Part shown: positions 3,712 to 29,859 of the stretch, piece by piece
Layout of the letters: each line of letters starts with the position of its first letter
Numbering within the stretch: position 1 is the first letter of the stretch
IMG/VR virus record: IMGVR_UViG_3300045988_137874
Coordinates: 1 to 49,655 of that record
Strand: one strand, 5' to 3'
Length of the DNA stretch: 49,655 bases
Source: a virus
Made by a program: the position numbers and the translations under genes
Notes under the pieces: model-generated
The model's input: the letters and a program-made list of their open reading frames with translations, nothing else
Databases searched by the model: none
What the model was told of the DNA's origin: nothing

Positions 3712-6700
3712 ATGAAGTTTTTAGAAGATTTTAATATCAAGAAATACGTGAAACCAAAAAAGAAGACCTCTAAACCACAGGGGTCTTCTTCTATTACTTA
3801 TACAAAACCTTTACCTAAAGGACCTATCCCAGTAAAGAAAGTAGTTCCAGATAAGATACCTACAAAACCTTTACCTACTACAAGCTCTAACAAAAGTTCT
3901 ATTGTAACAAAACCATTTTTTAATATTCCTATCCAGCCAGCACTACCTAGCCCAACAGCAATTAAGGCAAGACACAATGAGTTTGTAAAAGCTAACGCTA
4001 GAGCTAATAGAGCAATAAGTGATTTTAAATCTAATAACGTAATTGCTAATGCTACCTCTGGAATATTTAAAGGTGTAGAGTTTAATAAAAGAGTAGCACC
4101 TTTTATAGACACACGCCCTCAAGCAGTTAGAGATTTTAAAGTAAAGAACTATGCTTTCAGGAAGAATCCTATATTCAAATGGTACGAAAAGAAAGTACCC
4201 AACGTAGGAGAGCGTAGGTCTGGTACAGGAGCGTTTAGTAATAACAGTTATGTCAGAAACTTTACTACAGGACTATTTAAAGTATTAAGTTCTGATGCTG
4301 ACCCTAGAGGTATGCTCTCTGATCCTACTAGACGTAAGATACATGAAATGCAGAGAGCTAATCAAGCTAAAGCTCTACGTGCGTTTACTAAAGGTACTGG
4401 TGATTTAATAGCGGATACTATTATACGTCCATTCTATCAGAACGCATGGCAACAGGCAGAGCTTAAAGACAGGCTTAAACTACGTGAGCGTAAAATGAAT
4501 GAGCTCTATGGTTTAAATAGAAAGCAGCAAACATACTATGTAGAGGATGATAAGGGACGTGTATATGCTATTAAAGGTAGTAAAAATGGCGGTGACACTT
4601 ATAGTTATATTGATAGCAACGGAAAAGCGTTAAGTTTAGATATAACTGCACTGCCTAAAGATAGGGTAAACACATATAAGAGTATAGGGCTTATTCCTAG
4701 AGATAAAGTATTTCGTGTTAAAGATGGAGACCAGTTCCTCTCACAGCTACTAGACCCTAACTATAATTCAGGACTTCTTGCTAGAGACAGCAAGGGGCTC
4801 CCTTATATTTCTAATAAAGGGCTTAAACAGTATCTGGAGAATAACGGAGTAAGAAGTAATAGCACGTCTCTATTTGAAGCTATAAGCCCAAAACGTAGAG
4901 CAGATGATTTAATGATGCAGAGATATCTAGTTAAGTCTGCTGATGATTATGTTCAGAATAAATACTTTGGCGGTTATCCTCAAATGAGTACACGCTCTAT
5001 AGGAGCTAATCTTGCTATTAACTTTTTAGGACTAGGATTAAATATTATTAACAGACCGCAGCAAGGTGTGTCTGCTTATATCTTAGGTAAGAAAGAAGGA
5101 AAGACTGCGTCACAGATACGTAAAGATATGTATGCTGGATTTGTTGAGGGTAAGGATACATCCTTTACAGAATACTATCTTACTAAAAAAGATAAGCATC
5201 CTTACTTAAAAGGATTACTCTTTGATAGTATTTCAGACCCACTACTCTTTACTGACTTTATAGCTAAAGGTGGTGCAGGTGTAGCTAAAGGTATAACAAA
5301 GGCTTCTGTTAAATCCGAAATAACAGAGCGTAGTTTGCGTGAGGTTACAAGTAAGTATCTAGGAGGTGCTAGACTTCTTAATAAAAATGAAGGATTAACA
5401 TTTAAAGAAAGTCTACACAGTGTATTTGAAACACACAAACTAGGTACAGTTCATCAAACTAGAGGCGTTTATTCCAGAACCCTAGGTAGACTTAAAGGTG
5501 TGCAGATGACAGCTGATGCTTTAGATAATACTCTACCTAAAGCTCTACTGCCTAACCGTACTAAACGTCAGCTTATCAATACAATGGTTACTAATCCTAA
5601 ACAGGTAAATAAAAACTGGATTGCTAATGTACTACATGAAGCTGGATTTAGAAATAACCTTAAAGAAGATTTAGCAGATGCAATCTATGATAGCTACAGA
5701 ACTAGCAGACTTGTGACTAACACAGCTAGAGCTAATAAGATTGCAGACTCTACATCAGGAGCTTATAAGGTTTATAAGAAGTTTAAAGCCTTTGGAGAAG
5801 AAATAGACAGAGTAGATACTGCACTCACTAAAGCAGCGTTCCCAGTATTTACTGGAACTGTAAAAGGAACTAAAAAAGTAGTAAGAGCTATCAAGGCTTC
5901 TGAATTAAAGTCTTTTGTAGAAAAAGCAAAAGCACTTAAACAGATGCCTCTTTCTGATGTGTTTAAAAGTGATGAGCTTTTAGACCTAACTAAACGTAGA
6001 GCTGTTAAACAGGTAGATAAAGCAGTAGAGCCTTTAGCCAAAAACCACAAACTCTCTATGGAGCTACTTAATGAAGAAGCTGAAAAAGTTGTAGCAGCTA
6101 AAAGATATGGACAGTTTGGTAACACAGATAGTCTAGCTGACCTTATTACTGCTAGAGACAGTCAGCTCATAGATACTTTAGACAATATTCAGACCGCTGT
6201 TTCATCTAAAGAAAATGGTTATGGAACAGCTATGCGTATTATTAAAGATACTTATGATGACGCAGCAGATGTAACTTCTGTACATGAGTTTCTAGATAAC
6301 GCTCTACAATCTAATGATAACTTCCGTGAAGGACTTGTTTACGTAACTGACGACTCAGAGCGTAAAACTTTAAGTACACTCCTTAACGCTAGAGAAAATC
6401 AGATATATAAAACACAGCGTGTTTTAGATAATACTGAGGCTACAAAGCGTTTAAAGGATTTAGCACAGTTTACTAACATAGCTAAACAACAGGTACGCTC
6501 TGTAGAAAATTACACTGCTCTTGAAAAATATTTAGTTGAGAGCATAGAGCAAGCACACAACGCTACACATTATGTAGATACACATTTACAGGAGCTTGTT
6601 ACAAAACGTATAGATGAGGTTAAGGAACTACTACGTAGTGATGCTACAACTAAAGAGTTTAACCACACTATTAACCAGATTATAGGAGATGTTAAATCAA

Positions 6701-9700
6701 CCGCTAGTCAGCTCAAGACTCTAAAGAAAGAGTCTAAAGCTGTATCTATTAGTTCGTTCTTTTCTAAATTCAATAAAGTAAAAGAAGAGCTTGGAGCAAA
6801 GTCAGTTAAAGGTACGTTCTATAAAGATAATACTATAGAGCGGGTACTTAAAGATAAAGCTACAGCAAATGCATTTACTACTTTAACAGATATTTCTGAT
6901 GAGTATATAAGCGTTGTGTCTGGTTTAAAACAGTATTTACCTGAGTATCTGCATAGCGCTTTAGAAAGTGTTACGGATGTTAATGTAGATGATTTAGCAT
7001 TACAAACTGCAAAACGTAAAGCATTTCGCAGAGGAGAAGATATAGAAAAAGCAGTAAGCAGTGATATCAAATATATAGGACTCTCTGATTTCCCTAATGG
7101 AATTACAGACCTCATGCAGACTCTAGAAACGCAAGACTTTAAAAAGTTAAGCATACTATTAAACCTAGACGCCAATAGTAATATGGTTACTTTTGTAAAG
7201 CACCTAGATAGTTATATTGAGGAAAGCGTTTCTGAAGCTATAGATACACTACGCCTTATAGATTCTAAAACAGGGGCACCTCTAGCTAATTATCTAGCTG
7301 ACGTAGAGAGCACGCTGATTAAAACTAGAAATGCTGCAAAGTATGAGGACATTACTCTAGACCAGTTCACAACAGTAAGAGCTATTAAAGCTAATGCAGC
7401 ACAACTAGAAGCTACAGCACAAGACATCTATAAACAGAATAAGCATTTATTTAAAACGGGAGATTACTATTTAGAAAGAGTAGACCGCCTAATTAAATCT
7501 GAAATGCTTGATAATATTATAGAGTCTTACAGATTAGCTGATGATTATAAAACTGCCACAACTGTAGAGCAGTTAGCAACTTTTGCTGATGATATAGCTA
7601 AAAAGAAAAAAGCTAATGCACTGCTATCATCTTCATTAGAAGAAGCAGAATCTGCATTATCTCCAGAGCTATATAACATTTATCGTGATGCTTTATTTGA
7701 TGCACGTGATTTAGGACATAGTGCTATGGAGCACCCAGAATTTCTGGCTCCTGATTTTGTAGATCACGTTATAGAACAGCACTACTATCAGTATGCAAAA
7801 GCTAACTACAACATAGATAAAACCATAGGTGACTTGTACTCATTTAGTAAATCAGACCTGTCTAAAAAATATGATATAGACAAAGAGATACTAGATAGAT
7901 TATCTATAGGACATACTGCTGGTATAGACACGTACCGTTCTATCTTAACTAATATAGTACATGACCCTGAAAGTTTTGGTGATTTAATTGAACGTGCTAA
8001 AGCAGGCAGAGATGTATTTATATTTGATACAGAAACACTAGGTCTTAATACTAAACGAAATACTAACCATGTGTTCAGTATGGGTTTGTATAAATTAGAC
8101 CCAGAGCGTTGCAGTTTACTTAAATATGATAAGGAGCTAGAAAGATACACTAGCGAGAGTATCAATGAGTTTATGCGTGCTTTACTAAAAGATGCTGATT
8201 CTGGCAATGGATATAAAGAAATCTTAAATAAGATTCCTAATTACTTGATTGATAATGGGTGGCATCCGGATACGTCTTTCATGGATATTGCTACATTTAA
8301 AAAGATGTATGGTCATGAAGGCTATAGAATAGAAAATGATGTATTCGCTAATAACATTGTAAATACTATGCAGGAGATGCAGGGTACTCCCACATTAGAT
8401 TTACACAATGTTGTATTGTGCGGATTTAACAACCATGGATTTGATAATGTAGTTCTAGCTAATAACTGCCCAGAGATTGCAGCACTATTCAGAGATGTAC
8501 CGCAGAATATAGATATGCTAGTTAACATCAAAGCTAAACACGGTTTAATTATCTCGGATAAAGATAAGAATATAATAGGCAATCTATACAATAGTCTTTT
8601 ATCTGCACTGCATGATACAGATATAGAGAAGTTTAAGTATGCTTATCCAAGTAGACTTATAGATAGCTATGATAGATTTTATAGCACACTTCAGCGTTTA
8701 GGACACAGTGCTACAAGTCTTGACGTTGCTGTTGCACATGGAACAGATGGTACTCAGTATGCCTCTGCTTTAGATACTCTATTTAAAAACACGCCAGAGA
8801 GTATAGACCTTAATCTAGTTGCTAGTGAACTCCGAGAACAGAAGTTCCTACTGAAGTCTATTAACCATCTTAAAGATGATTCTCTAATTGTAGATCACGT
8901 CTTTAATCTGATTCCTAGTAACGAGCGTGCTTGGGAAACAGGTTATCTAGTTATGAAACTAGAGAATCCTAAACTAACTAGAGCAGAGTACGAAGCACTG
9001 TATAAATCTGGGGAACTTGCTAAATACGAAACTACAATTTCTAATTGGTTCCATATCCTAGACAGTAGCCCGGAGATTGATGTGCTTAAATTAACTCCAG
9101 AAGAGTTTATAGCTAAAGCAGATGAGCTTCGTGCAGCAGCAGATGTTATGACTGGTGGACAAACAAGTAACATCATCAGATGGATTAATGGTGTAGCTGA
9201 TGGAGGTTACTCCTATTTCCAAACACTAGCTGTACAGAATAAAGTAAATAAGAACATGCTAGACTGGTTTGGACATGTGATGAATAACTATCACGCTATA
9301 GAGACATACAGACAGCTTACTGCTAATATTCAAAATAATCTCAGACACAACGCTGATGATATATTTGATATAGACAACAGAATGTTACTAACAGGCATAG
9401 CATGGCGTGAGCTTAAAGATTATTGTATTGCACGTCCAGAACTCGCTAGTGCACTCTATATTTTTAATATAGATTTTGATGCACGCACAGTGAGTGAAAA
9501 GTTTGCAATTCTTGAAGAATTAATTATGGGTAAAAAGTACGGTATGCGTGAGACACTGTTTGGTACTTCTGACAGTGCAGTAAGGTTACTTCCGTCTGCA
9601 TACTTTGATTTTTCAGAACACACTGTAGACGTAATAAACTACATATTTAATACACGTAAACATAATAATTATTATCTCTTTGATAAAGAGATAGGTTTCT

Positions 9701-12700
9701 TTACTAGAAATGCAAAGGGAGCTGCGTATGAGATAGCTAGTGAATTAGAACGTGTTAAGTATGATACAGATGCTTTTGAGGAGTTTGCAGAAAGACTCTC
9801 TGGAATAACTGGAGGTGCTTCTGTAGAAAAACACACTATGGCTGTAGCACTACAACCTATTAATAATTTACGTAAGCAAATAGTAAGAATACTTAATAGT
9901 ACGGATGCAAAAAACACAATCACAAACCTTTACTATGATTTACAGCAAATAAAAAATGTTTGGGACGAAGTACATCACACTAGGGTTAAAGCTCTTGTAT
10001 CCGATATGCTTCAGAATGAAGACGCTATCTTAGAGCATCTAATCACGCCTGACTTTAACGGTATGATGTTCCTGCGTTTCTCTCCTGATGATGATAACAT
10101 CAAGCTAGTAGACCAGCTATTATCAGGAACACACCCTAACAGCAAATACCTACAAGTGCGTTATTTAGAAAAAGATGAGGTTGTCGCTGTAACTCTAAAT
10201 AATTTGTGTGACCTAGATGATAAAGCACTACATCTACTCGACACAGGAAAAACCATACAGCGAAATAACATAATAGGAAGGAGTATGCCTACTGAATTAC
10301 TTAATACATTTAAAAAGCAAATAGATAAGCTAGATACTCTAGCACCTGATTCTGTATTAAGACTTTACTATGAGTCATTACAGAATCTAGCAGCATATAG
10401 CAAACACAACTTTAGAGATTACACGCACGGGTTACTCAATGTAGAAAAGATAGACCAGTTACGTGAAGTCTTTGATGTAGTTAATATGATGGATTTAGAT
10501 AAGTTTGGTATGCAGACTATAGATGGATTCGTAAGTGCAGGTTCTTACTTAACACTAGAACCACCTAAGGCAGTTAATGGTGTTAAGTTCTATAACAATC
10601 CATTACTCACAGCCGAGACATTATTAAAACGTAATGCAGAGCAAGCTCTTGATAGTCACACTACTGTTGCTTACTTCTTACGTAATGAAGATCTTAACTC
10701 TTTAAATAAATTTGATTTATCTGATAAAGAGTGGTTTAGAGTATTAGACCAGCTAGAGGATTCCTTTGTTGTTTGTGCTATGGGTACAGACAACAAGAAT
10801 AAAAAGTATTTAAGTAAGTTAGAGTCACAAATTAAAGAAGCTAAAAAGGCTGATGACGTTAAGACACTAGAGAAGTTAGGTGAAGAGTATAGAGCTTATA
10901 ATCCAGTACAGCTTAAATCCTTTGAAATAAAATCTTCGAGGGATTTACAAAGAGCTAAAGAAGCTAATGCAGTTCTAGTCCCTAGAGTTGTGTATGAAAC
11001 ACTCTACGGACACGTGAATAACTTTACACCAACCAATCCTATACTGCGTGGTTACAACAGATATGTAACTATGATGAAAGCGTTTTATATCTCTACGCTA
11101 GGTACAGCCATGCGTAACTACATAGACGAAACCATCAAGACCTATATAGATGTAGGTTGGGAAGGTGTACCTATTGTGCATAGAGCTAGATTTCAGGCTA
11201 TGGCGGACCTATCTGATTATAATCAGATTATGGATGCTATTAAGAAAGACCTCAATACAGGACAACTTATTAAGGGTAAACTTAATTCAGCACAAGCTAG
11301 AGCACACCAGAGCCTAATACAAAAAGGTTTTGCAGATACACCATATTATTTTAATATCCCTGTATCTGATGCACAGAAGTATTATGGTTATTTAGCTGAA
11401 GCTGGAATACTACCTAAACACCTCACTGAACGTATGGATGCAAGTAACTTCTTACGTATGCACGCATTTATGCTAGAGGGTGCATCTGGTGGTACTCAGG
11501 CTGGAGAAATACAAGCACGTGCATTAGCACACTCTATCCCTGAACTAGAGGGTGTTGCTGCTAGAAACAAAGGTGTGTTTGGAACTCTAGGTGCTTTTCT
11601 GAAAATGCCTGATAAAGATTTAGACTCCTATGTATCCATGGGTAACTATCTCTTTAGTAAAGGTGTTTCAGCAGCACTAACTCCAATGGCTTATACAGAG
11701 CAGATTACAAGACTTACACATATGTACACTCTTGAGGAGCTAGGGATAGGTAAAATAGAAGCGTTCTCCAGAATATCTAAAACACATTTCAATTATGATG
11801 TTAAAGATAGAGCAGCAGTTTATGCACAGCTTCTGTTCCCATTCTTTAACTTTACTAAACTAAATATAGACTACTGGATGAACGCATGGACTAAAGACGC
11901 ACACTCTATTCATAACCTACTCAGGCTAAACCAGCAGAACCTTAAAGAGGCTCTGGATGATAACTATGAGCGTACAAGAAATGGACAGTGGGTTGATATG
12001 TCTTATCTTAATCATGCTATGGCAGGTAACCCTAGGATACCTAACCCAGCACAGAATGAGGGACAGGCTGCGTGGTTAAAGTTAAATCCATCATTCTATG
12101 ATGCGTATAACTTCCTACTCGATCCTATGAATCAAGGTATGCAGGATATATTCAGTCCAATTCAGAATGTACTCCAGGATAGACACTTCTTTGATGGTGC
12201 TATTAAAGCAGGTATCTTTAACCAAGGTTATGGTGGAAATGGCTTAATGGATTTCTTACCGCTGATAGGTTCTACTATATTACCAATGCATGAGAATAAA
12301 CTCAGGTATATAGATAAAACCTTTACAGAGTATAGAAACGATACTTTCGCCCAGCTATTAAAATCACCCGGCTCATTTGCACAGCTTCCTACAATCCTTG
12401 CTTTTTCAAAGATAGACTTTGGAGAGGATTATGAGAAGTTTAATAAGTTCTTAAATGCTAATGGTTATGCTTACGATTTCTACACTCGTCAGATAAAACC
12501 AATTAAGGACTGTGTGGCTAGAGATAGTAAAGAGTTATCTATGTATATGTACAAAAAGTATGGGTTAGTATATGACTTCATTACTAAAACATTTGTACCA
12601 GCGTATCTATCCAAGGACCCTGTGACTCGAAATGTAAGTTTTAAAACACCGCATAGTCAAGCACAGTGGTCTGATATACAAGCACTTGCTAAACTCTATC

Positions 12701-24779: not shown

Positions 24780-24807
24780 ATTATGTTCCTTTTATTACTT
24801 TACTGTT

Positions 24808-24882
24808 ATATAGCAGGGCGTGCAAGTGGATCTTTCCGGCTAGTGGGGTGCCTGGAAAGATCCCTTCGCATGAGCGCTATAT
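24808..24882 (-). promoter_or_regulatory. long imperfect stem-loop in the leader of the HTH gene (or an independent small RNA)
   Basis: The outer stem is ATATAGC/GCTATAT (24808-14 / 24876-82). The inner perfect 10-bp stem is GGATCTTTCC/GGAAAGATCC (24828-37 / 24854-63) with a 16-nt loop. Additional TGC/GCA and AAG/CTT pairs lie between them. Confidence 0.45.
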
Positions 24883-24903
24883 TTAGTGAGTGTATCACTT
24901 TGT

Positions 24904-24931
24904 GTTACATTAGCGAAACGCATAATGCTTA
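24904..24931. repeat. left copy of a 28-bp direct repeat bracketing the RT module (GTTACATTAGC-N5-GCATAATGCTTA)
   Basis: 25 of 28 positions are identical to 26521-26548. Both copies are intergenic and lie upstream of minus-strand transcription units. Confidence 0.8.
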
Positions 24932-24949
24932 ACTTAGTAGTCAAAATGG

Positions 24950-25105
24950 CTAAAGTAATATAGCATAAAGTTTTCATAAAAAAAATAGATACTCAAGAGT
25001 GTGTATACATGTGACTAATTTTAGAGAGAATTTATGATGAACATGTTTTGAGTAATTCGTTAGAAATATCTAAAGTAATAACGTAAAAGTTTTGAGTATC
25101 TATTT
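24950..25105 (-). repeat. structured non-coding segment downstream of the RT: 14-bp perfect inverted repeat plus about 25-bp direct repeats
   Basis: The inverted repeat is AAATAGATACTCAA (24983-24996) / TTGAGTATCTATTT (25092-25105). The direct repeats are CTAAAGTAATA..AAAGTTTT at 24950-24974 and 25070-25093. No ORF with an RBS is present. Confidence 0.6.
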
Positions 25106-25112
25106 CGTATTT

Positions 25113-25172
25113 AAAAACAGTAAGTGCTCTCTTATTTGTGTTTATGTGTCTTTTGTTTATAAGCACCTACTG
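25113..25172 (-). terminator. candidate terminator after the RT gene (11-bp stem, large loop, T5 on the minus strand)
   Basis: CAGTAAGTGCT (25118-28) pairs with AGCACCTACTG (25162-72) with one mismatch. The A5 run at 25113-17 gives a T5 tail on the minus-strand RNA. The large loop makes it atypical. Confidence 0.4.
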
Positions 25173-25184
25173 TTCTTAACAAAG

Positions 25185-26304
25185 TTAGTATAGCATATTT
25201 TTCATATACTGCTCTACGTTGGTTTTATATTTTACAGTATATTTATGTAATATGTAATTTGTGTAATCAGGGTCTACAGCCTTTGCGTAAGCTATGTTCC
25301 CCTGTAGTTCCTGTATTTCGGGTACAGTCCATGTCTTCTTTTCAACTATGTTTTCATAACAGAATCTATTTATCTTTGCGTTTAGGATTTTATTGTTTTT
25401 ATGTCCTAATGTAATTCTGTTATCTTTGTTCAGCATGAGTCCTACATTCCAGTTTCTTCCTGCGTTAGACCCGTATCTTGTTTTCTTATTGTTGATTTTA
25501 AATGGAGCATTAAAGTTATTTAGAATGTTTTCTATTTCTTTAATAACGTCTGTCCACTTAAAACTCTTACCTGCACTAATGATAATATCATCAGCGTATC
25601 TTGTGTATGTGAAGAATGTTCCATACTTCTTACCTAGTTCTACGCATAAGTTTGTTATGTCATAGTCTATAGGTACCATGCAAAGATTTGTAAGTGCTGG
25701 ACTAACAGGCGTACCCTGTGGGAGTTTATCGTTTAGGAGGCAAATGTCTAGCATTTTAGAGATGACAGCTCTATCATTTTTGATAAGTGCTCCTATAGGG
25801 TAAACCTGCTCCAGCATGTTTAAGATATATTCTTTGTTGTGTGCTGGGAAGAAGTTGCTAAAGTCTATTTTCAAGAACCATTTAGCTTGCATGTTTTGAT
25901 GTTTCTTTAAACTTTCTATATGGCTTCTTCCTTTGACGTATGCATAAGCAGCGTCATGTGGTAGTATATGCAATTCGTCTTGTAACCAATACGCAAGTGT
26001 TGACTGTATAGTTTTGAGTTCCTGTATTGGGGCATCAATCTCACGCAGTCCTCCAGACTTCTTTGGAATTTTGAACGAAGAGTATAGCTGTAAATTAGAT
26101 TTACTTAAAGACTCCCAACTATTTAAGATGTAGTCTCTAAATCGTGTAGCGTCCTCTGTTAGTGTAAAGTTAGTAGTATCTGGTAGCTCTACTGTTGTAT
26201 ACTCTCGTAGTTTCGTTTTTTCTGGTATAGGTTCGTTTAGAAGTATTTTTCTTAATGTTACTTTTGGGTAGTTTATTTTTTTCTCTGTGAATTGTGTAAT
26301 ACAT
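25185..26304 (-). CDS. reverse transcriptase, retron/Abi-like (non-DGR, no maturase or endonuclease domain); needs a +1 shift in an A7 tract
   Basis: RT motifs read in one frame: FKIPKKSGGLREIDAP (1-2), WFLKIDFSNFF (A/3), LPQGTPVSPALTNL (4), YTRYADDIIIS (YADD, 5), FKINNKKT (6) and RNWNVGLML (retron VTG-like, 7). This frame is open over 26318-25185, but its first canonical start is the TTG at 25973, which lies after motifs 1-2. The ATG at 26304 with a GGAGG RBS is in the frame one nucleotide off. Confidence 0.85.
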
Positions 26305-26520
26305 TTTTGTTTCCTCCATTACTGTGATAGTTTGAGCTCTTTGTCTGTAGCTGCTGACAGGGCGTCGCACTGGACTCGTTTGGTTTGTGCACCTTGGAGT
26401 TTTAATCTTTTGCTGGTTTATCCTGCATTTGGATTATTTGCATCCTTCTGTAGCGTCAGGTTCCTGAGTAATTTTTTCTTTTCTACGTCATCCAGCTCTT
26501 CCGTTTTTCTCTGACAATGC
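26305..26520 (-). ncRNA. candidate structured leader/ncRNA upstream of the RT
   Basis: About 215 nt with no RBS-preceded ORF, lying between the 28-bp repeat and the RT start. It is more GC-rich than other intergenic DNA. It contains an 8-nt direct repeat GCTACAGA (26447-54 and 26344-51 on the plus strand as TCTGTAGC) and several short hairpins. No secure fold could be derived by eye. Confidence 0.3.
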
Positions 26521-26548
26521 GTTACATTAGCTAATAGCATAATGCTTA
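26521..26548. repeat. right copy of the 28-bp direct repeat bracketing the RT module
   Basis: GTTACATTAGC-TAATA-GCATAATGCTTA, compared with GTTACATTAGC-GAAAC-GCATAATGCTTA at 24904-24931. The copies are 1617 bp apart. Confidence 0.8.
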
Positions 26549-26595
26549 TATTTTTTATTAAGAGTATAAAATAACTAATGGATAATATTTTGATT

Positions 26596-27267
26596 TTAGA
26601 ACGAGTCTAAAAACATGTCAAATACGTTAATTGTTGCAAACTTTTTTTGTGCGCCTGTGTTTATATAGTTTATAAAGTTGGCTACCTGCAAGCTCGCTAA
26701 CACGTGCACCGTAGGGGACACTGATAACGACATCCCACAAGCACTTGTTGGTGTTTCAGCTTTTGCTTCTTCATGACTAAAACACATAGAAGCTAGTAAG
26801 CGTTCTTGGTCTTCCTTATTCTTCCAATCCGCAGCTAAAACAGTACCATCTTCCAAACCGAGCCTAATGTCAAAGATTGCTTTTATCTGTTTGTTCTTTG
26901 TAGCTACAGTTGTTATGTCTCTTCTTGTGTCAATGTTATCTACTGCTAGAAAAACATAACCAGCTAGTCTATCTGCTGGTGTGCAACGTTCTTTCTTTGT
27001 GATTCTGCAAGAGTCATTTATTTTAAGTAATCTTGCTTCAAGTGCGTCTGTTTTTAGCATACCTACTTCTGTGTTATCGTAGAGCTGATTTACTACATTG
27101 TGAGACTCAATTGTGTCAAAATCCCATAGTGTAATCTTGTCTATTCCAGAGCGTACTAGCATATCAGCTAGAAATGAACCTGTTGCTCCACAGCCTACAA
27201 TATGTACTTCTGTTTTGCCTAGTTTCTTTGGGTCAAAGTAGTCCTTACTTTTGTTTAGGTTAATCAT
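26596..27267 (-). CDS. ThiF/MoeB/E1-like adenylyltransferase (short, 223 aa)
   Basis: Rossmann motif HIVGCGATGS, then WDFDTIESHNVVNQ (DxD..N..Q), GMLKTDALEARLLKIN, FLAVDNIDTRRDI and a C-terminal SACGMSLSVSPTVHVLASLQVANFI. This is the canonical E1 adenylation-domain motif order. Its ATG overlaps the JAB stop. Confidence 0.85.
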   Translation of the reverse strand: MINLNKSKDYFDPKKLGKTEVHIVGCGATGSFLADMLVRSGIDKITLWDFDTIESHNVVNQLYDNTEVGMLKTDALEARLLKINDSCRITKKERCTPADRLAGYVFLAVDNIDTRRDITTVATKNKQIKAIFDIRLGLEDGTVLAADWKNKEDQERLLASMCFSHEEAKAETPTSACGMSLSVSPTVHVLASLQVANFINYINTGAQKKFATINVFDMFLDSF

Positions 27268-27986
27268 TATTTGTTTCTCCTTCCATAGTAGAAATTACGT
27301 TCATCACCTATAGGATATCCTGCGTCACCGTAGTAATAATCTTCCAGAATGTCATCATCCATTTCTAATAGTGCTGTCGTGTCTTTCCAATTGTTCTTGT
27401 TCTTATTCTTATTCTTATTGTTCTTGTTATAAGTATAAACTGTTGGCTTATACTCTGTGACTTTTTCTTTTGTTTCTCTAATAGCCCACTCTGTTTCTTT
27501 GTTAGCAACTGGGATTATCTGAATATCCTTTGTTTCATACTGTAAGCCAGTTACTGTGTCATAAATGGTGCACCAGATTTCTCTTTTCTTATTTACAATT
27601 AAGAATATGTAGAAGTCACCCTCTTGTAGCTGTGCTAAATGGTCTTCTTGTAATTTGGTGTCTGTAGCACTAGGTGATGTTCCCATAGTTACGTGGGAGT
27701 GTCCGTGTATACGTAGTTTATCGAATACGTTTGAGTTAAGGTCAAGTCTATAACCGTCTAGCCATTCTGCAAACTTAGCTTCGTCTGCTACTATAGATGT
27801 TGCATCTACAGCCTGTGGGTATACTAGAATATCAGTTATTATGAAAGTGTTATCTTTTCTTTCTACTGTTCCGTGCCAGCCAATTTCTTTTGTGTTGTAA
27901 TCTACTAGAGCCCACATTTTGTTATAGGCTGTTTCTGTAAATGTTACAACTGGCTGTACATAATCTTTTTTAAGAATCGGTTTCAT
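27267..27986 (-). CDS. JAB/MPN (JAMM) metalloprotease
   Basis: A complete JAMM signature is present: upstream Glu (KEIGWHG), then HGHSHVTMGTSPSATD, which is HxHx7SxxD. The start is chosen at MKPILKK (27986) because the track start at 28040 overlaps the upstream gene by 71 nt. The C-terminus has a (NK)n low-complexity tract. Confidence 0.85.
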   Translation of the reverse strand: MKPILKKDYVQPVVTFTETAYNKMWALVDYNTKEIGWHGTVERKDNTFIITDILVYPQAVDATSIVADEAKFAEWLDGYRLDLNSNVFDKLRIHGHSHVTMGTSPSATDTKLQEDHLAQLQEGDFYIFLIVNKKREIWCTIYDTVTGLQYETKDIQIIPVANKETEWAIRETKEKVTEYKPTVYTYNKNNKNKNKNKNNWKDTTALLEMDDDILEDYYYGDAGYPIGDERNFYYGRRNK

Positions 27987-29577
27987 TTGTTTCTCTCTCT
28001 GTTTCATACTCTCTACAAAAATCAATATCTTCCCAATCAAAAGTAGGTCCGTCCCATTCTTTATAGTAATCTGTCTGTATAAAGTCTTTTATGATTTGGC
28101 GTAATACACTTCTTGTATATACTCTCTTTTTTTCTACAGTGTCATATAGACCGGATTCTGCATTATTTAGACAATACTTTACGAGTGCCCTTACTACATA
28201 ATCATCAGTTAGATTTATCTGTGTCATAGCATAATTAACTTGTGTTACTGCACCTTCTAAATCATTGTTATCTAGGAACTCTTTGATTGCATATTCGTGA
28301 GAGCCCCAACAATCAAATCTCATTAAGTGGGGGTGGTATAGGTTTTTTGTTTCTGGATTTAGGCGTGTTACTGCTGTGTCTTCTCCTATGTGTGCGTTTA
28401 TAGTCTTTGTTCTATAATTTAAGTCACACTCAGTATACACAGGTACTTCATATTTTTTCTGTATAAAGCACGCCCATAGTAAAGCTAGTTTTGGTAGAGG
28501 CTCTGTATTAAACTCTTCTAGCATTATATCTATTTTGTCAGGATCCCATTCAGTTAAGTGTGTTGCTCCTGCTATATGTACTTTTTGTTCTAGCGTATCA
28601 ACGTCTACTGTTAGATGTGAAAGATATTTACCTGCATAGCTTAATAGATTTTTGACCATCTCTTTTTGTGTTACTATAAGACTGTAATCAGGTCCTTCTT
28701 CTTTAAGTGTTAGTAATCTATCTTTAACTTCAATTATTTTATTTTGATAGTTGGTTATGTCCTCCTGTTTGTCCTTTATACGGTTTGTGTAATCTCTTAT
28801 TGTTGCGTTTGTAGCGAATAATTCTTTTTCATAACTCTTTATTACATCTTCTAGTTCCTTTTGTTTATTGTACCACGTATTAACACAGCGTTCTTTTAGT
28901 GCAAACTCTTCACTTGCACACTTCTCTTTAATACTTGCTATGGTTTTGTTTATATCATTTGTGGTGTGTAATTCTGCGAAGATACTATATGGGTTTGTTC
29001 TTATTTCTTTTGGTAGTCTGCTATAGAAATACATTAGTATCTCTAATACTGCATACTTATTTTTTGCAAAAGAATCTATAGGTGTATCCATAAAGCAGAG
29101 TGTCATTTTGGTACCATTTGGTGTTTTGTATGTTACTGCATATGTTTCTGTGCTATATAGTGTGTGTAAGAGCTGCGTGAGTGTATTATCTATTTCCCAA
29201 TCATTACTATTTGGAATTAATGCTCTTATTCGTTTTATCTGTTCTATGTCTTGTACGCTTGCACATGAAAGGTGTATCTGACTTCTATGTCTATTTGGAT
29301 TTGTGAGCGTGTGTTCTATCATTTGTATAAAATTTGTTGCTGTATTTTTATCTATTAGGATTACATCTAGACTTTTATAACTAAGTAGCGATACGCAGTT
29401 AGTTATAAATGTACGTAATTCTGTAATGTGCTCTATGTTTGGTGTTACGTTGTCTACATAAACTGGAGCATATGAGCTAGGGTTAGGTAGCATTCTGTTT
29501 AATCTTGGAAGTAAATCAAAGATGAACTCTTGATTTTCGCTATTCACATACTCCTTAAAGTTTTTATATTTTGTCAT
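27970..29577 (-). CDS. 535-aa protein with central coiled coil and C-terminal E2(UBC)-like HPH..C motif (putative E2-like conjugating enzyme or adaptor)
   Basis: The C-terminal segment NLYHPHLMRFDCWGSHEY resembles the UBC HPN-x(6-8)-Cys active-site loop. Its position between the Ubl and JAB/E1 genes fits bacterial Ubl operons. The N-terminal 400 aa are unrecognisable. Confidence 0.35.
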   Translation of the reverse strand: MTKYKNFKEYVNSENQEFIFDLLPRLNRMLPNPSSYAPVYVDNVTPNIEHITELRTFITNCVSLLSYKSLDVILIDKNTATNFIQMIEHTLTNPNRHRSQIHLSCASVQDIEQIKRIRALIPNSNDWEIDNTLTQLLHTLYSTETYAVTYKTPNGTKMTLCFMDTPIDSFAKNKYAVLEILMYFYSRLPKEIRTNPYSIFAELHTTNDINKTIASIKEKCASEEFALKERCVNTWYNKQKELEDVIKSYEKELFATNATIRDYTNRIKDKQEDITNYQNKIIEVKDRLLTLKEEGPDYSLIVTQKEMVKNLLSYAGKYLSHLTVDVDTLEQKVHIAGATHLTEWDPDKIDIMLEEFNTEPLPKLALLWACFIQKKYEVPVYTECDLNYRTKTINAHIGEDTAVTRLNPETKNLYHPHLMRFDCWGSHEYAIKEFLDNNDLEGAVTQVNYAMTQINLTDDYVVRALVKYCLNNAESGLYDTVEKKRVYTRSVLRQIIKDFIQTDYYKEWDGPTFDWEDIDFCREYETERETNETDS

Positions 29578-29622: not shown

Positions 29623-29859
29623 CTAAAAGTTTCCGTCAGACTTAACTGTCTTTGTTAGTCTGTATTCATCAGCTTCACCTGCAAGATTTAGGATTGTTTC
29701 ATCTAGTTTGTGTTCTGGAACTGCTACTCCGTTTAGGAATGGTAGTCCAACCTCAGGCTGCATACCGTTGTCTAGAAAAGCCTGTCTTACTGTAAGTTCA
29801 CCTGGCTCAATTATTACGCTCTTTCTGTTGTGATTATCTGCTATTAGCATGTTTTTCAT
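29623..29859 (-). CDS. small beta-grasp (ThiS/MoaD/ubiquitin-like) protein candidate, 78 aa
   Basis: Size and pattern (..IIEPGELTVRQAFLDNGM....FLNGVAVPEHKLDETIL..) resemble ThiS/MoaD-type Ubls. The C-terminus is ...KSDGNF, a single Gly 2 residues from the end that JAB trimming could expose. It has a strong AGGAGA RBS. Confidence 0.45.
   Translation of the reverse strand: MKNMLIADNHNRKSVIIEPGELTVRQAFLDNGMQPEVGLPFLNGVAVPEHKLDETILNLAGEADEYRLTKTVKSDGNF

What the first reader, a model, noticed from the sequence alone, without database searches (positions are those of the whole stretch)
24780..26595. Retron/Abi-like reverse transcriptase with long structured non-coding flanks in a phage genome
- One frame across 26318-25185 carries all RT motifs: IPKKSGGLREI, KIDFSNFF, LPQGTPVSPALTNL, YTRYADDIIIS, INNKKT and a VTG-like NVGLML. 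There is no maturase, endonuclease or other fused domain.
- QGxxxSP plus YTRYADD, together with the post-palm pattern, are retron/Abi/UG-like rather than DGR-like.
- The gene is surrounded by unusually long non-coding sequence for this densely packed genome. About 250 nt lie upstream. About 400 nt lie downstream and contain a 75-nt long stem-loop, a 14-bp perfect inverted repeat 95 nt apart, and 25-bp direct repeats.
- Standalone RTs with ncRNA partners are established bacterial defence systems (retrons, DRTs). A phage-borne copy next to a Ubl cassette is unusual. It could make a cDNA or msDNA-like product for superinfection exclusion or counter-defence.
Basis: partly seen in the sequence, partly recalled or inferred. 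Interest (0 to 1): 0.8.

Follow-up and report, generated by a model that had tools for sequence, protein, structure and literature searches.

The report
Phage retron-like RT with template-RNA genes
This phage carries a retron-type reverse transcriptase flanked by two copies of a conserved structured RNA gene and always linked to a ubiquitin-like conjugation cassette, a widespread gut-phage module I could not find described.

Summary
One frame on the minus strand (26318-25185) carries all RT motifs, flanked by 276 and 405 nt of non-coding DNA.

In this window the gene is broken. Both candidate start codons (26319, 26304) and the ribosome-binding site lie in another frame. An A7 run (26282-26276) is A6 in relatives.

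The RT is retron-type (PADLOC RT_II-A 3e-58; closest solved structures are retron RTs). It is not DGR, group II or DRT.

The flanks hold two paralogous RNA modules on the RT strand: U (26582-26315) and D (24960-24793). Each has a long-range closing helix followed by a G, a variable hairpin, and a fixed-geometry 22-nt hairpin. Both helices covary across the family. A covariance model finds exactly these two copies in the window. In unrelated genome loci it gives 87 hits, all on the RT strand, with up to seven in tandem. Rfam has no match.

The Ubl cassette is not a chance neighbour. Ubl, a 535-aa protein, JAB and E1 precede this RT clade in about 95% of loci, and the link holds reciprocally.

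Best reading: a phage-borne retron-like system, probably a new retron type. cDNA synthesis and biological role are untested.

The parts
26593..26621 (-). Sigma-70-like promoter, TTGACA-17-TAAAAT. The -10 hexamer overlaps the E1 stop codon. The predicted transcription start lies a few nt upstream of unit U.
   Evidence: 11 of 12 consensus matches; coordinates. This is a consensus match only.
26315..26582 (-). ncRNA unit U (268 nt). In order: a1 TCCATTA 26582-26576; G 26575; AT-rich P1; hairpin P2 26545-26524; AACGCATTGTCAG 26523-26511; about 180 nt of fast-evolving A-rich interior; CTATCACAG 26330-26322; a2 TAATGGA 26321-26315, which overlaps the RT ribosome-binding site and first ATG.
   Evidence: Covariance model R1 hit 26591-26508 at 52.5 bits. 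RNAalifold on 5 orthologues predicts a1/a2, P1 and P2. Coordinates. In L004 about 165 nt of the interior are deleted while the ends are kept.
25185..26319 (-). Retron-type reverse transcriptase gene (377 aa in intact relatives). In this window it is split by a +1 A insertion. The start codons at 26319 and 26304 are in one frame. The RT frame is open from 26318 to the stop at 25187-25185.
26276..26282 (-). A7 homopolymer that causes the frameshift. It is A6 in L001 and L002 (96-97% identical RT). L003 and L004 (69%) have no such run there.
   Evidence: alignment; (the intact protein P0001 begins MEETEMYYTIHREKINYPEV).
25111..25179 (-). Hairpin A. It has 18-19 bp and a loop of 31-33 nt, and begins 5 nt after the RT stop codon. 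Its 3' arm runs into TTTTT.
   Evidence: (I6). The helix is kept in L003 and L004 with a different stem sequence. It is not called by the terminator scan because the loop exceeds 8 nt.
24978..25106 (-). Long-range helix I1, followed by a T8 run. The arms are 25106-25092 and 24996-24982 and enclose 95 nt.
   Evidence: (I1). There is a compensatory A-U to G-C change between the window and its 96-97% relatives, and further changes in L003 and L004. Its role is not established; a terminator or processing site is possible.
24793..24960 (-). ncRNA unit D (168 nt). In order: a1 TATTACTTTA 24960-24951; G 24950; P1 TTGACT-ACTA-AGTTAA 24944-24929; hairpin P2 24928-24907; AACACAAAGTGAT 24906-24894; long msd-like hairpin with core 24864-24828; CTATATAACAG 24813-24803; a2 TAAAGTAATA 24802-24793. 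The ribosome-binding site and the ATG (24779) of the next gene follow directly.
   Evidence: R1 hit 24982-24891 at 44.2 bits. MFE fold. Coordinates. The a1/a2 pair shows a compensatory change in L003 and L004, TACTTCA/TGAAGTA.
26596..27267 (-). E1-like ThiF-family adenylating enzyme (223 aa), immediately upstream of unit U.
   Evidence: Pfam ThiF 1.8e-28. PADLOC CBASS 'E1-E2' models 1.4e-20. Closest solved structures are TcdA, UBA5 and MccB. Found upstream of the RT in 80 of 84 viral loci.
27267..28040 (-). JAB/JAMM metalloprotease-like protein (257 aa) carrying HSH-x7-S-x2-D.
   Evidence: Motif read in the translation. Weak PADLOC JAB hits, 3e-4. Found in 79 of 84 viral loci.
27970..29577 (-). 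535-aa protein (P535) with a central coiled coil and a conserved C-terminal PNPHIxxYxCLG motif. His417 and Cys423 are invariant. It may be E2-like; this is unproven.
   Evidence: (homologues in 126 loci). No Pfam or PDB match. The AlphaFold model is unusable, pLDDT 38.
29623..29859 (-). 78-aa ubiquitin-like candidate ending ...KSDGNF. Family members end ...VVKADNA or ...KADGA.
   Evidence: (homologues in 79 loci). The beta-grasp fold was not tested.

Best explanation
The locus is a phage-borne retron-like system.

**Components**
- A retron-clade RT.
- Two paralogous non-coding RNA genes that flank it, U upstream and D downstream.
- Four genes just upstream: Ubl, a 535-aa Cys/His protein, a JAB protease and an E1.

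**Proposed mechanism**
- Each RNA is transcribed on the RT strand.
- Its ends pair in a long-range helix, a1/a2.
- Hairpins P1 and P2 form the handle that the RT recognises.
- The RT then copies the interior, starting next to a2. By analogy with retrons it would prime from the 2'-OH of the conserved G that follows a1. The product would be an RNA-linked single-stranded DNA, up to about 200 nt from U and about 100 nt from D.
- The RT-RNA/DNA complex then acts together with the Ubl conjugation enzymes, as sensor, regulator or specificity factor, in conflict with the host or with rival phages.

**What is shown:** RT family placement, RNA structure and covariation, copy number, and gene linkage.

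**What is inferred:** that the RNAs are templates, the priming chemistry, any coupling to the Ubl enzymes, and the biological role.

**This window's copy:** it carries a 1-nt homopolymer insertion. Either the assembly is wrong at that run or this copy makes little or no full-length RT.
For: **RT family placement**
- The best 25 PADLOC matches shown are all retron RT models, RT_II-A best at 3.3e-58 over nearly the whole model.
- NCBIfam retron_St85_RT scores 205.6 bits. Group II scores 77.8, Drt3a 42.8 and Drt2 38.9.
- The 12 best solved-structure matches are retron RTs, with Ec83 at 1.5e-21.

**RNA structure**
- P2 shows two-sided changes at 7 of 9 pairs. Its covariation score is 0.86 against 0.24 in shuffles and at most 0.15 with slid partners.
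- In the a1/a2 closing helix, 341 of 408 cells pair, against 271 +/- 7 with partners swapped between units (maximum 293 in 1000 trials).
- RNAalifold on 12 full units recovers the 10-bp closing helix independently. Six of its pairs carry compensatory changes.
- The position after a1 is G in 52 of 68 units that were chosen without reference to it.

**Specificity to this RT clade**
- Model R1 finds only the two RT-flanking copies in the 49.7-kb window.
- In 80 genome loci not used to build it, R1 gives 87 hits at E <= 0.01. All are on the RT strand and cluster just upstream and downstream of the RT. None falls in the 13 loci that hold ordinary retron RTs.

**Gene linkage**
- E1 is upstream in 80 of 84 viral loci and JAB in 79, while the downstream genes are shared by only about 25.
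- The same holds in most genome loci with RT identity of about 35% or more, and in none at 34% or less.
- Starting from E1 instead, 78 of 79 informative loci have the RT downstream.
Against: - No RT product has been observed.
- The retron signature residues are only partly kept. NAxxH reads SLKKH and VTG reads NVG.
- The NCBIfam score is below the St85 family cut-off of 235 bits.
- The RNA interior is usually not a strong hairpin as in classical msd. Mean z is -1.1, and only 5 of 34 units fall below -2. Unit U has z = -0.7.
- Several RNA copies per RT, and arrays of 7-9, are unknown for retrons as far as I know.
- The a1/a2 helix of unit U is only 7 bp and is invariant among its five orthologues. 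It also overlaps the RT start region, so its conservation could be due to coding or the ribosome-binding site.
- The seed for the P2 test was selected for perfect pairing, so '100% paired' is true by construction.
- The linkage of RT, RNA units and Ubl cassette could in part reflect common descent of these phages.
- In this window the RT is frameshifted.
Confidence: 0.6

Rival explanations
1. The repeated RNA modules are RT-independent phage elements, such as structured 5' leaders, small RNAs or antitermination and stability elements. They would mark the starts of several early transcription units. The RT would be only one of the genes they flank.
For: - Each unit's 3' arm is followed directly by the ribosome-binding site and start codon of a gene. 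Unit U precedes the RT and unit D precedes the 158-aa HTH gene. The same is seen in L039, L052 and L065.
- Extra copies lie 1-4 kb from the RT, among other genes and RNA genes: 8 further copies in L019, next to tRNA, tmRNA and drum RNA genes in L012, L020 and L039.
- The interior is weakly structured. About 165 nt of it can be lost, as in L004.
Against: - All 87 independent hits are on the RT strand and concentrate immediately beside the RT.
- In the 49.7-kb window the motif occurs only at the two RT flanks.
- Tandem units with no gene between them exist, for example L039 units 2 and 3, and 7 units in the 3.1-kb L164. A leader function does not fit these.
- A closing helix followed by a conserved G, then handle hairpins, is the retron RNA layout.
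Confidence: 0.15
2. The RT does copy these RNAs, but not in the retron manner. It might start from a 3'-OH or a protein primer, or use template jumping or rolling-circle copying as in DRT2. The closing helix would bring the template ends together, and the product would be free or concatemeric cDNA.
For: - The closing helix juxtaposes the two ends of a 200-280-nt interior.
- The interior is T-poor (18% T) and A/C-rich, unlike typical msd hairpins.
- The retron signature motifs NAxxH and VTG are degenerate.
- A nearly invariant G lies 9 nt after P2, in 67 of 68 units. It has no counterpart that I know of in retron RNAs.
Against: - A continuous open frame of the Neo type is not enriched. 5 of 34 units have an open sense frame against 3.7 expected, and 5 of 34 on the antisense strand.
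- The Drt2 and Drt3a models score only 39-43 bits against cut-offs of 390 and 200.
Confidence: 0.15
3. In this particular genome the RT is a recently inactivated pseudogene: the extra A is real. The locus would then be a decaying copy of the module.
For: - A7 in the window against A6 in both 96-97% relatives. The ATG frame ends after 44-49 codons.
- Related genomes show decay of parts of the module. L004 has lost about 165 nt of unit U. The D unit of L003 has a damaged P2 base and a shortened interior.
Against: - Downstream of the run the 1.1-kb RT frame is fully open, with all catalytic motifs intact, and is 96-97% identical to intact relatives.
- A single-base error in a 7-nt homopolymer is a common assembly artefact.
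- The slippery run is not conserved in the 69% relatives, which also argues against programmed recoding.
Confidence: 0.2

Closest known systems
Bacterial retrons (RT + msr-msd RNA + effector). The nearest by sequence are types II-A (St85/Sen2, Ec86) and I-A (Ec78, Ec83).
   Same: - The RT falls with retron RTs in every profile and structure-sequence search.
- The RNA gene lies directly upstream of the RT on the same strand.
- The RNA ends pair in a covarying a1/a2-like helix followed by a conserved G, then stem-loops next to it.
- Accessory genes are tightly linked to the RT.
   Different: - It is carried by phages with their own replication and virion genes.
- There are two to nine RNA modules per RT, with a shared handle and different interiors.
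- The interior is long (200-280 nt) and mostly weakly structured.
- The RT has about 50 extra N-terminal residues and degenerate NAxxH and VTG motifs.
- The partner genes are a Ubl, Cys/His protein, JAB and E1 cassette. That is not among the effector types in the 2020 classification, whose text contains no ThiF, JAB or ubiquitin.
Bacterial ubiquitin-like conjugation operons: Bil (Ubl-E2-JAB-E1) and the CBASS type II Cap2 (E2-E1) and Cap3 (JAB) pair.
   Same: - The E1 matches CBASS Cap2 E1 models at 1.4e-20 and the JAB matches Cap3-type JAB models weakly.
- The gene order, small Ubl-like protein, large Cys/His protein, JAB, E1, matches my recollection of the Bil operon order. That point rests on memory, not on a test.
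   Different: - There is no CD-NTase.
- The E2 identity of the 535-aa protein is unproven.
- The Ubl candidates end in NA, GA or GNF rather than GG.
- The cassette is phage-borne.
- It is obligatorily linked to an RT and its RNAs.
DRT2 (UG2) and other defence-associated RTs with upstream ncRNA templates.
   Same: A single-domain RT with a structured ncRNA directly upstream that is presumed to be its template.
   Different: - The Drt2 and Drt3a profiles score far below their cut-offs.
- There is no enrichment of a stop-free frame in the template region.
Diversity-generating retroelements of phages.
   Same: A phage-encoded RT with nearby repeated sequence.
   Different: - RT motif 4 reads QGTPVSP, not the DGR-type I/LGxxxSQ (the DGR motif is from my own knowledge).
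- There is no template/variable repeat pair. Allowing A-to-N mismatches, the unit interiors match nothing in the window except themselves.

Membership tests
Retron | RT belongs to the retron clade of prokaryotic RTs. | tested here: met
   - The best 25 PADLOC hits shown are all retron RT models, best RT_II-A at 3.3e-58 covering 19-302 of 304 positions.
- The 12 best solved-structure matches are retron RTs.
- The score is below the narrower NCBIfam St85 family cut-off, 205.6 against 235 bits.
- No full phylogeny was run.
Retron | Retron-specific RT residues, the NAxxH and VTG motifs. | tested here: inconclusive
   Aligned to the Ec83 RT, NAKIH corresponds to SLKKH and VTG to NVG. Only the H and the G are kept. 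The family consensus reads DAxKRH and NLG.
Retron | Adjacent ncRNA whose ends pair (a1/a2 inverted repeats). | tested here: met
   - At family level the closing helix covaries.
- Window unit D has a 10-bp helix, with a compensatory change in L003 and L004.
- Window unit U has a 7-bp helix that is invariant among orthologues.
Retron | Conserved priming (branching) G at the end of the 5' arm. | tested here: inconclusive
   A G follows a1 in both window units, at 26575 and 24950, and in 52 of 68 family units. Its role as a 2'-OH primer cannot be tested here.
Retron | msr stem-loops plus an msd stem-loop template. | tested here: inconclusive
   The msr-like hairpins P1 and P2 are present and P2 covaries. 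Unit D has a strong msd-like hairpin. Unit U and most family interiors are not significantly structured.
Retron | Production of multicopy RNA-linked single-stranded DNA. | not testable with these tools
   This needs nucleic-acid analysis from cells expressing the RT and its flanks.
Diversity-generating retroelement | Template repeat paired with a variable repeat in a target gene, differing at adenines. | tested here: not met
   Scanning both unit interiors against the whole window while scoring only non-A positions returns only self matches.
Group II intron | Intron RNA domains, and an RT with a maturase domain. | tested here: not met
   There is no Rfam intron hit at gathering threshold or at E <= 5. 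group_II_RT_mat scores 77.8 bits against a cut-off of 300.
DRT / UG-Abi reverse transcriptases | RT matches DRT family models. | tested here: not met
   Drt3a scores 42.8 against a cut-off of 200. Drt2 scores 38.9 against 390. Both match only the palm region.
Bil / CBASS-type Ubl conjugation cassette | E1 adenylation domain and JAB/JAMM protease. | tested here: met
   ThiF 1.8e-28. PADLOC E1-E2 1.4e-20, JAB 3e-4. The JAMM motif HSH-x7-S-x2-D is read in the translation.
Bil / CBASS-type Ubl conjugation cassette | E2 with a catalytic Cys, and a beta-grasp Ubl with an exposed C-terminal Gly. | tested here: inconclusive
   The 535-aa family has invariant His417 and Cys423. It has no Pfam or PDB match and the AlphaFold model has pLDDT 38. 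The Ubl candidates share a ...K[AS][DE][NG][AG] C-terminus. No fold was tested.

The most novel reading that the evidence does not exclude
This would be a new class of phage retroelement system with two unusual properties. First, one retron-type RT would read an array of interchangeable template RNAs that share a handle and differ in cargo. Second, its RNA/DNA products would be mechanistically coupled to a ubiquitin-like conjugation machine, for example by directing or gating protein tagging during phage-host or phage-phage conflict. If so it is more than another retron type: a programmable, multi-template RT system joined to protein conjugation.
Probability: 0.25. Interest if true: 0.95.

Novelty: new variant of a known kind. 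Interest (0 to 1): 0.8.

Why it matters
- **Scale.** Retrons are known as bacterial defence systems with one RNA and a toxic effector. Here a retron-clade RT sits in phage genomes. At least 538 stretches in IMG/VR viral contigs and 492 in the genome collection encode relatives.
- **Hosts.** Most of the 80 genome loci shown are gut metagenome bins assigned to Clostridia (Bacillota); a few are Bacteroidales.
- **Several templates per RT.** The RT has several template-like RNAs. That bears directly on how retron RTs choose templates, and on engineering multiplexed DNA production.
- **A new partnership.** The RT is always accompanied by a Ubl, JAB and E1 cassette. This links two active fields, reverse-transcriptase immunity and bacterial ubiquitin-like conjugation, in one testable module.
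- **A new RNA family.** The RNA family itself is absent from Rfam 15.

Tried and rejected
- **Nucleotide search of phage records.** A blastn search of 50,697 phage records with the 3-kb locus found nothing. The protein search found only distant RTs, best 35.7% identity in an unannotated faecal phage.
- **Rfam.** Nothing at gathering threshold over the whole window, and only noise at E <= 5 over the locus. Related loci gave only tRNA, tmRNA and drum RNA.
- **DGR hypothesis.** No variable-repeat partner was found.
- **DRT2-like 'endless ORF' hypothesis.** Open frames in the unit interiors are at chance level.
- **Small-peptide idea.** Both window P2 hairpins contain an ATG that opens ORFs sharing MxxANVT. 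The ATG is absent from the upstream P2 of L003 and from other clades, and the stem covaries, so the idea was rejected.
- **Programmed frameshift or slippage.** The A-run is A6 in close relatives, with an intact frame, and is absent in the 69% relatives.
- **Cargo as spacers.** The interiors of 197 candidate units were compared with all 1.5 Mb of fetched loci. They hit only orthologous units or their own hairpins. Host genomes could not be searched.
- **A third unit in the window.** An exhaustive R1 search found only two.
- **Identifying the 535-aa protein.**
  - Pfam on 40 members and a profile against PDB gave only coiled-coil noise.
  - Database searches returned only 5-6 relatives.
  - AlphaFold on that shallow alignment gave pLDDT 38 and was not used.
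- **Literature.** Searches combining retron or reverse transcriptase with ThiF, JAB, E1-like, JAMM or ubiquitin-like found no description of this module.
Full report
**1.

Translating 26327-25185 on the minus strand gives one open frame after a TAA. Pfam finds only RVT_1.

The gene is flanked by 276 nt upstream (26595-26320) and 405 nt downstream (25184-24780) with no plausible ORF.

The downstream stem-loop is at 25179-25111. The inverted repeat 95 nt apart has arms at 25118-25092 and 24996-24970. The downstream flank folds far better than shuffles (z = -8.7). The upstream flank does not (z = -0.7).

**2. The gene is frameshifted in this window**

The RT frame has no ATG, GTG or TTG before TTG 25973. 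A strong ribosome-binding site, GGAGG at 26317-26313, and the ATGs at 26319 and 26304 lie in another frame, which ends at 26170.

Alignment with four related viral contigs shows the cause. An A-run is A7 here (26282-26276). It is A6 in the two 96-97% relatives, which encode an intact 377-aa protein beginning MEETEMYYTIHREKINYPEV. The 69% relatives have no such run.

So this is a window-specific one-base insertion in a homopolymer. It is either an assembly error or a very recent mutation. It is not conserved recoding.

**3. The RT is retron-type**

| Search | Result |
|---|---|
| PADLOC | Best 25 matches shown are all retron RT models; RT_II-A best at 3.3e-58 over 19-302 of 304 positions |
| NCBIfam retron_St85_RT | 205.6 bits (family cut-off 235) |
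| NCBIfam group II RT/maturase | 77.8 bits |
| NCBIfam Drt3a / Drt2 | 42.8 / 38.9 bits |
| Solved structures | 12 best matches are retron RTs (Ec83 1.5e-21, Ec78, Kva2, Ec67, Ec86) |

In the alignment to the Ec83 RT, the retron signatures are only partly kept. NAKIH aligns with SLKKH and VTG with NVG. The protein also has about 50 extra N-terminal residues.

**4. The window is a phage and the RT family is large**

PHROGs identifies a portal, a major head protein, a family-A DNA polymerase, a primase-helicase, a RecE-like exonuclease and an amidase. Related contigs are 49-51 kb, the size of the window.

The RT has 2305 database relatives at E <= 1e-20. The best 120 are mostly 355-395 aa. At least 538 stretches in IMG/VR viral contigs and 492 in the genome collection encode relatives. 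The genome hits are mostly gut metagenome bins assigned to Clostridia, some on contigs of 100-360 kb.

**5. A conserved RNA module lies in the flanks**

*Discovery.* A 27-nt motif, AAGCATTAYGC-N5-GCTAATGTAAC, occurs exactly twice in the window. One copy is upstream and one downstream of the RT, on the RT strand, against 0 expected. Distant loci also share short direct repeats between the RT's two flanks. The sequences differ from clade to clade.

*Hairpin P2.* Read as structure, these repeats are one 22-nt hairpin of fixed geometry. It has a G-U pair, a C-G pair and four more pairs, then a 1-nt bulge, three pairs and a triloop. It is followed by AAC and, 9 nt after the hairpin, a nearly invariant G. 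Across 67 distinct copies, 7 of 9 pairs show two-sided changes.

*Caveat.* These copies were picked for perfect pairing, so the paired fraction is true by construction. The diversity of pair types and the slid-partner control remain informative.

*Full unit.* In most clades the full unit reads as follows:
- ..TGYAAY (a1), then G
- a variable hairpin P1, stacked on P2
- AAC-AAnTTG
- a 200-280-nt interior rich in A and C and poor in T (18% T)
- (A)TGTAG, then RTTRCA.. (a2)

*Closing helix.* The a1/a2 helix covaries within each unit, and not between neighbouring units. 341 of 408 cells pair, against 271 +/- 7 when partners are swapped among units. RNAalifold on 12 full units recovers the 10-bp closing helix, with compensatory changes at 6 pairs. 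It also recovers P2 and an internal ATTG-N5-CAAT hairpin.

*Specificity.* A covariance model of the 5' half, R1, finds only the two known copies in the window when every position is scored (52.5 and 44.2 bits; the next hit has E = 4.5).

*Independent test.* In 80 genome loci that played no part in building the model, R1 gives 87 hits at E <= 0.01. All are on the RT strand and cluster just before and after the RT. None falls in the 13 loci (L151, L152, L154-L163 and similar) that carry ordinary retron RTs of 34% identity or less.

*Copy number.* Copy number ranges from two to nine. L019 has nine copies and the 3.1-kb L164 has seven in tandem. Tandem spacing is 254-340 nt.

*Rfam.* Rfam 15 has no match, even at permissive thresholds.

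**6. Anatomy in the window**

All coordinates are on the minus strand.

*Promoter.* A sigma-70-like promoter, TTGACA-17-TAAAAT, lies at 26621-26593 and overlaps the E1 stop codon.

| Element | Unit U (26582-26315) | Unit D (24960-24793) |
|---|---|---|
| a1 | TCCATTA 26582-26576 | TATTACTTTA 24960-24951 |
| G after a1 | 26575 | 24950 |
| P1 | AT-rich, not delimited | 24944-24929 |
| P2 | 26545-26524 | 24928-24907 |
| Motif after P2 | AACGCATTGTCAG 26523-26511 | AACACAAAGTGAT 24906-24894 |
| Interior | about 180 nt, fast-evolving | strong hairpin, core 24864-24828 |
| Motif before a2 | CTATCACAG 26330-26322 | CTATATAACAG 24813-24803 |
| a2 | TAATGGA 26321-26315 | TAAAGTAATA 24802-24793 |
| What follows | a2 overlaps the RT ribosome-binding site and first ATG | ribosome-binding site and ATG (24779) of the next gene |

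*Support for U.* RNAalifold on five orthologues predicts a1/a2, P1 and P2 for unit U. Its closing helix is invariant there, so it carries no covariation of its own.

*Support for D.* The closing helix of unit D shows a compensatory change in L003 and L004, TACTTCA/TGAAGTA.

*Decay in relatives.* L004 has lost about 165 nt of the interior of U but keeps both ends.

**7.

Hairpin A (25179-25111) and the long-range helix I1 (25106-25092 with 24996-24982, then T8) are both kept in relatives with changed stem sequences. One A-U to G-C exchange separates the window from its 96-97% relatives.

Their position suggests a terminator or a processing site for the RT transcript. That is inference. The simple terminator scan does not call them.

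**8. The Ubl cassette is a conserved partner**

*From the RT side.* In 84 viral loci with RT identity of 35-97%, an E1 homologue lies upstream on the same strand in 80 and a JAB homologue in 79. The exceptions are cut by contig ends. The downstream genes (SNF2 helicase, AAA_24 and others) are shared by only 23-25 loci. Contigs range from 8 to 152 kb.

*In genome loci.* The pattern repeats in the genome loci. Most with RT identity of about 35% or more have E1 and JAB. None at 34% or less does.

*From the E1 side.* Of the 80 best E1 loci, 75 showed the RT motif directly and three more by tblastn. One is cut by the contig end. That leaves 78 of 79 informative loci with the RT downstream.

*The other two genes.* Profile iteration finds the 535-aa protein in 126 loci and the 78-aa protein in 79 of about 165. 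Both counts are limited by the flank fetched. An independently annotated locus with a 50% identical RT has the same order of gene products: 76 aa, 476 aa, 273 aa, ThiF 221 aa, a 320-nt gap, RT, then a 363-nt gap.

*What the proteins are.*
- The E1 matches CBASS Cap2 E1 models (1.4e-20).
- The JAB matches Cap3-type models weakly and carries the JAMM motif.
- The 535-aa family has invariant His417 and Cys423 in PNPHIxxYxCLG. An E2-like role is plausible but unproven.
- The small proteins end ...VVKADNA...KADGA or ...KSDGNF.

**9. Alternatives excluded**

- **DGR.** There is no variable-repeat partner, and RT motif 4 is QGxxxSP.
- **Group II intron.** There is no intron RNA and no maturase-level match.
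- **Neo-type open frame.** It is not enriched in the interiors.
- **Small peptides from the ATG inside P2.** The ATG is not conserved.
- **Interiors as spacers.** They match nothing else in 1.5 Mb of fetched loci. Host genomes could not be searched.

**10. Most likely mechanism**

*Shown:*
- a retron-clade RT;
- covarying RNA modules with a retron-like layout, restricted to this RT clade and its strand;
- a tightly linked Ubl, Cys/His protein, JAB and E1 cassette.

*Inferred:*
- The RNAs are transcribed from their own promoters.
- They fold with a1/a2 closed, and the RT binds them through P1 and P2.
- They are reverse transcribed from the position next to a2, probably primed by the G after a1.
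- The resulting RNA-DNA complex works with the Ubl machinery.

The direction of benefit is open. It could be exclusion of rival phages, counter-defence, or control of the phage's own cycle. The module sits in the replication gene block of a phage with its own polymerase. Relatives also lie on long contigs of genome bins, so some may be prophages.

**11. Comparison with known systems and novelty**

By RT sequence and RNA layout this is closest to retrons. It differs in five respects:
- it is carried by phages;
- it has multiple RNA modules with a shared handle;
- the interiors are long and mostly unstructured (mean z = -1.1);
- the signature motifs are degenerate;
- the partner genes are different.

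The 2020 retron classification contains no ThiF, JAB or ubiquitin term. Searches of 8 million papers and preprints found no description of the module.

I therefore rate it a new variant of a known kind, a candidate new retron type. It could be something more distinct if the multi-template and Ubl links prove to be mechanistic.

**12. Caveats**

- No product has been seen.
- The seed for the P2 statistics was selected for pairing.
- The closing helix of unit U lacks covariation of its own.
- Linkage by common descent cannot be fully separated from functional linkage.
- The window's own RT may be defective.

Noticed in passing
window 3712-13887 (+): A single 3391-aa ORF with no PHROGs match at E <= 1e-5. 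It is by far the largest gene of this 50-kb phage.
   Followed up: no
L012 2446-4340; L020 7852-9086; L039 6495-7088: In related phages the region just downstream of the RT and its RNA units holds arrays of tRNA genes, a tmRNA gene and a drum RNA (RF02958). The RT sits at the edge of an RNA-gene island there. The window itself has no tRNA gene.
   Followed up: partly
L164 384-2402: Seven RNA units in tandem, about 320 nt apart, on a 3.1-kb contig directly after the end of an RT gene. This is the longest uninterrupted array seen.
   Followed up: partly
L004 about 5925-5990, compared with L003: A close relative has lost about 165 nt of the interior of the upstream unit while keeping a1, P1, P2 and a2. 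The D unit of L003 and L004 has a damaged P2 base, and a third intact unit follows it.
   Followed up: partly
window 25071-25081 and 24792-24802: An 11-nt perfect complement to the a2 arm of unit D lies inside the I1-enclosed region (TTATTACTTTA). It is a second copy of the a1 sequence, so a longer alternative fold is possible. It is not conserved in L003 (I22, 26).
   Followed up: partly
window 27267-28040 (-): The JAB protein has a low-complexity NKNNKNKNKNKNN tract and an acidic, Tyr-rich tail. Its called TTG start overlaps the end of the 535-aa gene by 71 nt, so the true start may be an internal ATG.
   Followed up: no
window 25001-26000: The RT region has the lowest G+C of the window, 33.3% against 35-46% elsewhere. 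This is compatible with acquisition as a cassette.
   Followed up: no
family-wide, 9 nt after hairpin P2 (window 26515 and 24898): A G conserved in 67 of 68 units, in the AAC-AAnTTG motif. It is the most conserved unpaired base of the RNA and has no assigned partner or role.
   Followed up: no
L058, L061, L074, L076, L081, L084: One RT subclade has a different handle hairpin, CTCTT-C-GG-TTATAT-CC-AAGAG, also repeated on both sides of the RT. The two copies differ by compensatory changes (CTCTT/AAGAG against CCCTC/GAGGG). Model R1 does not detect it at E <= 0.01.
   Followed up: partly
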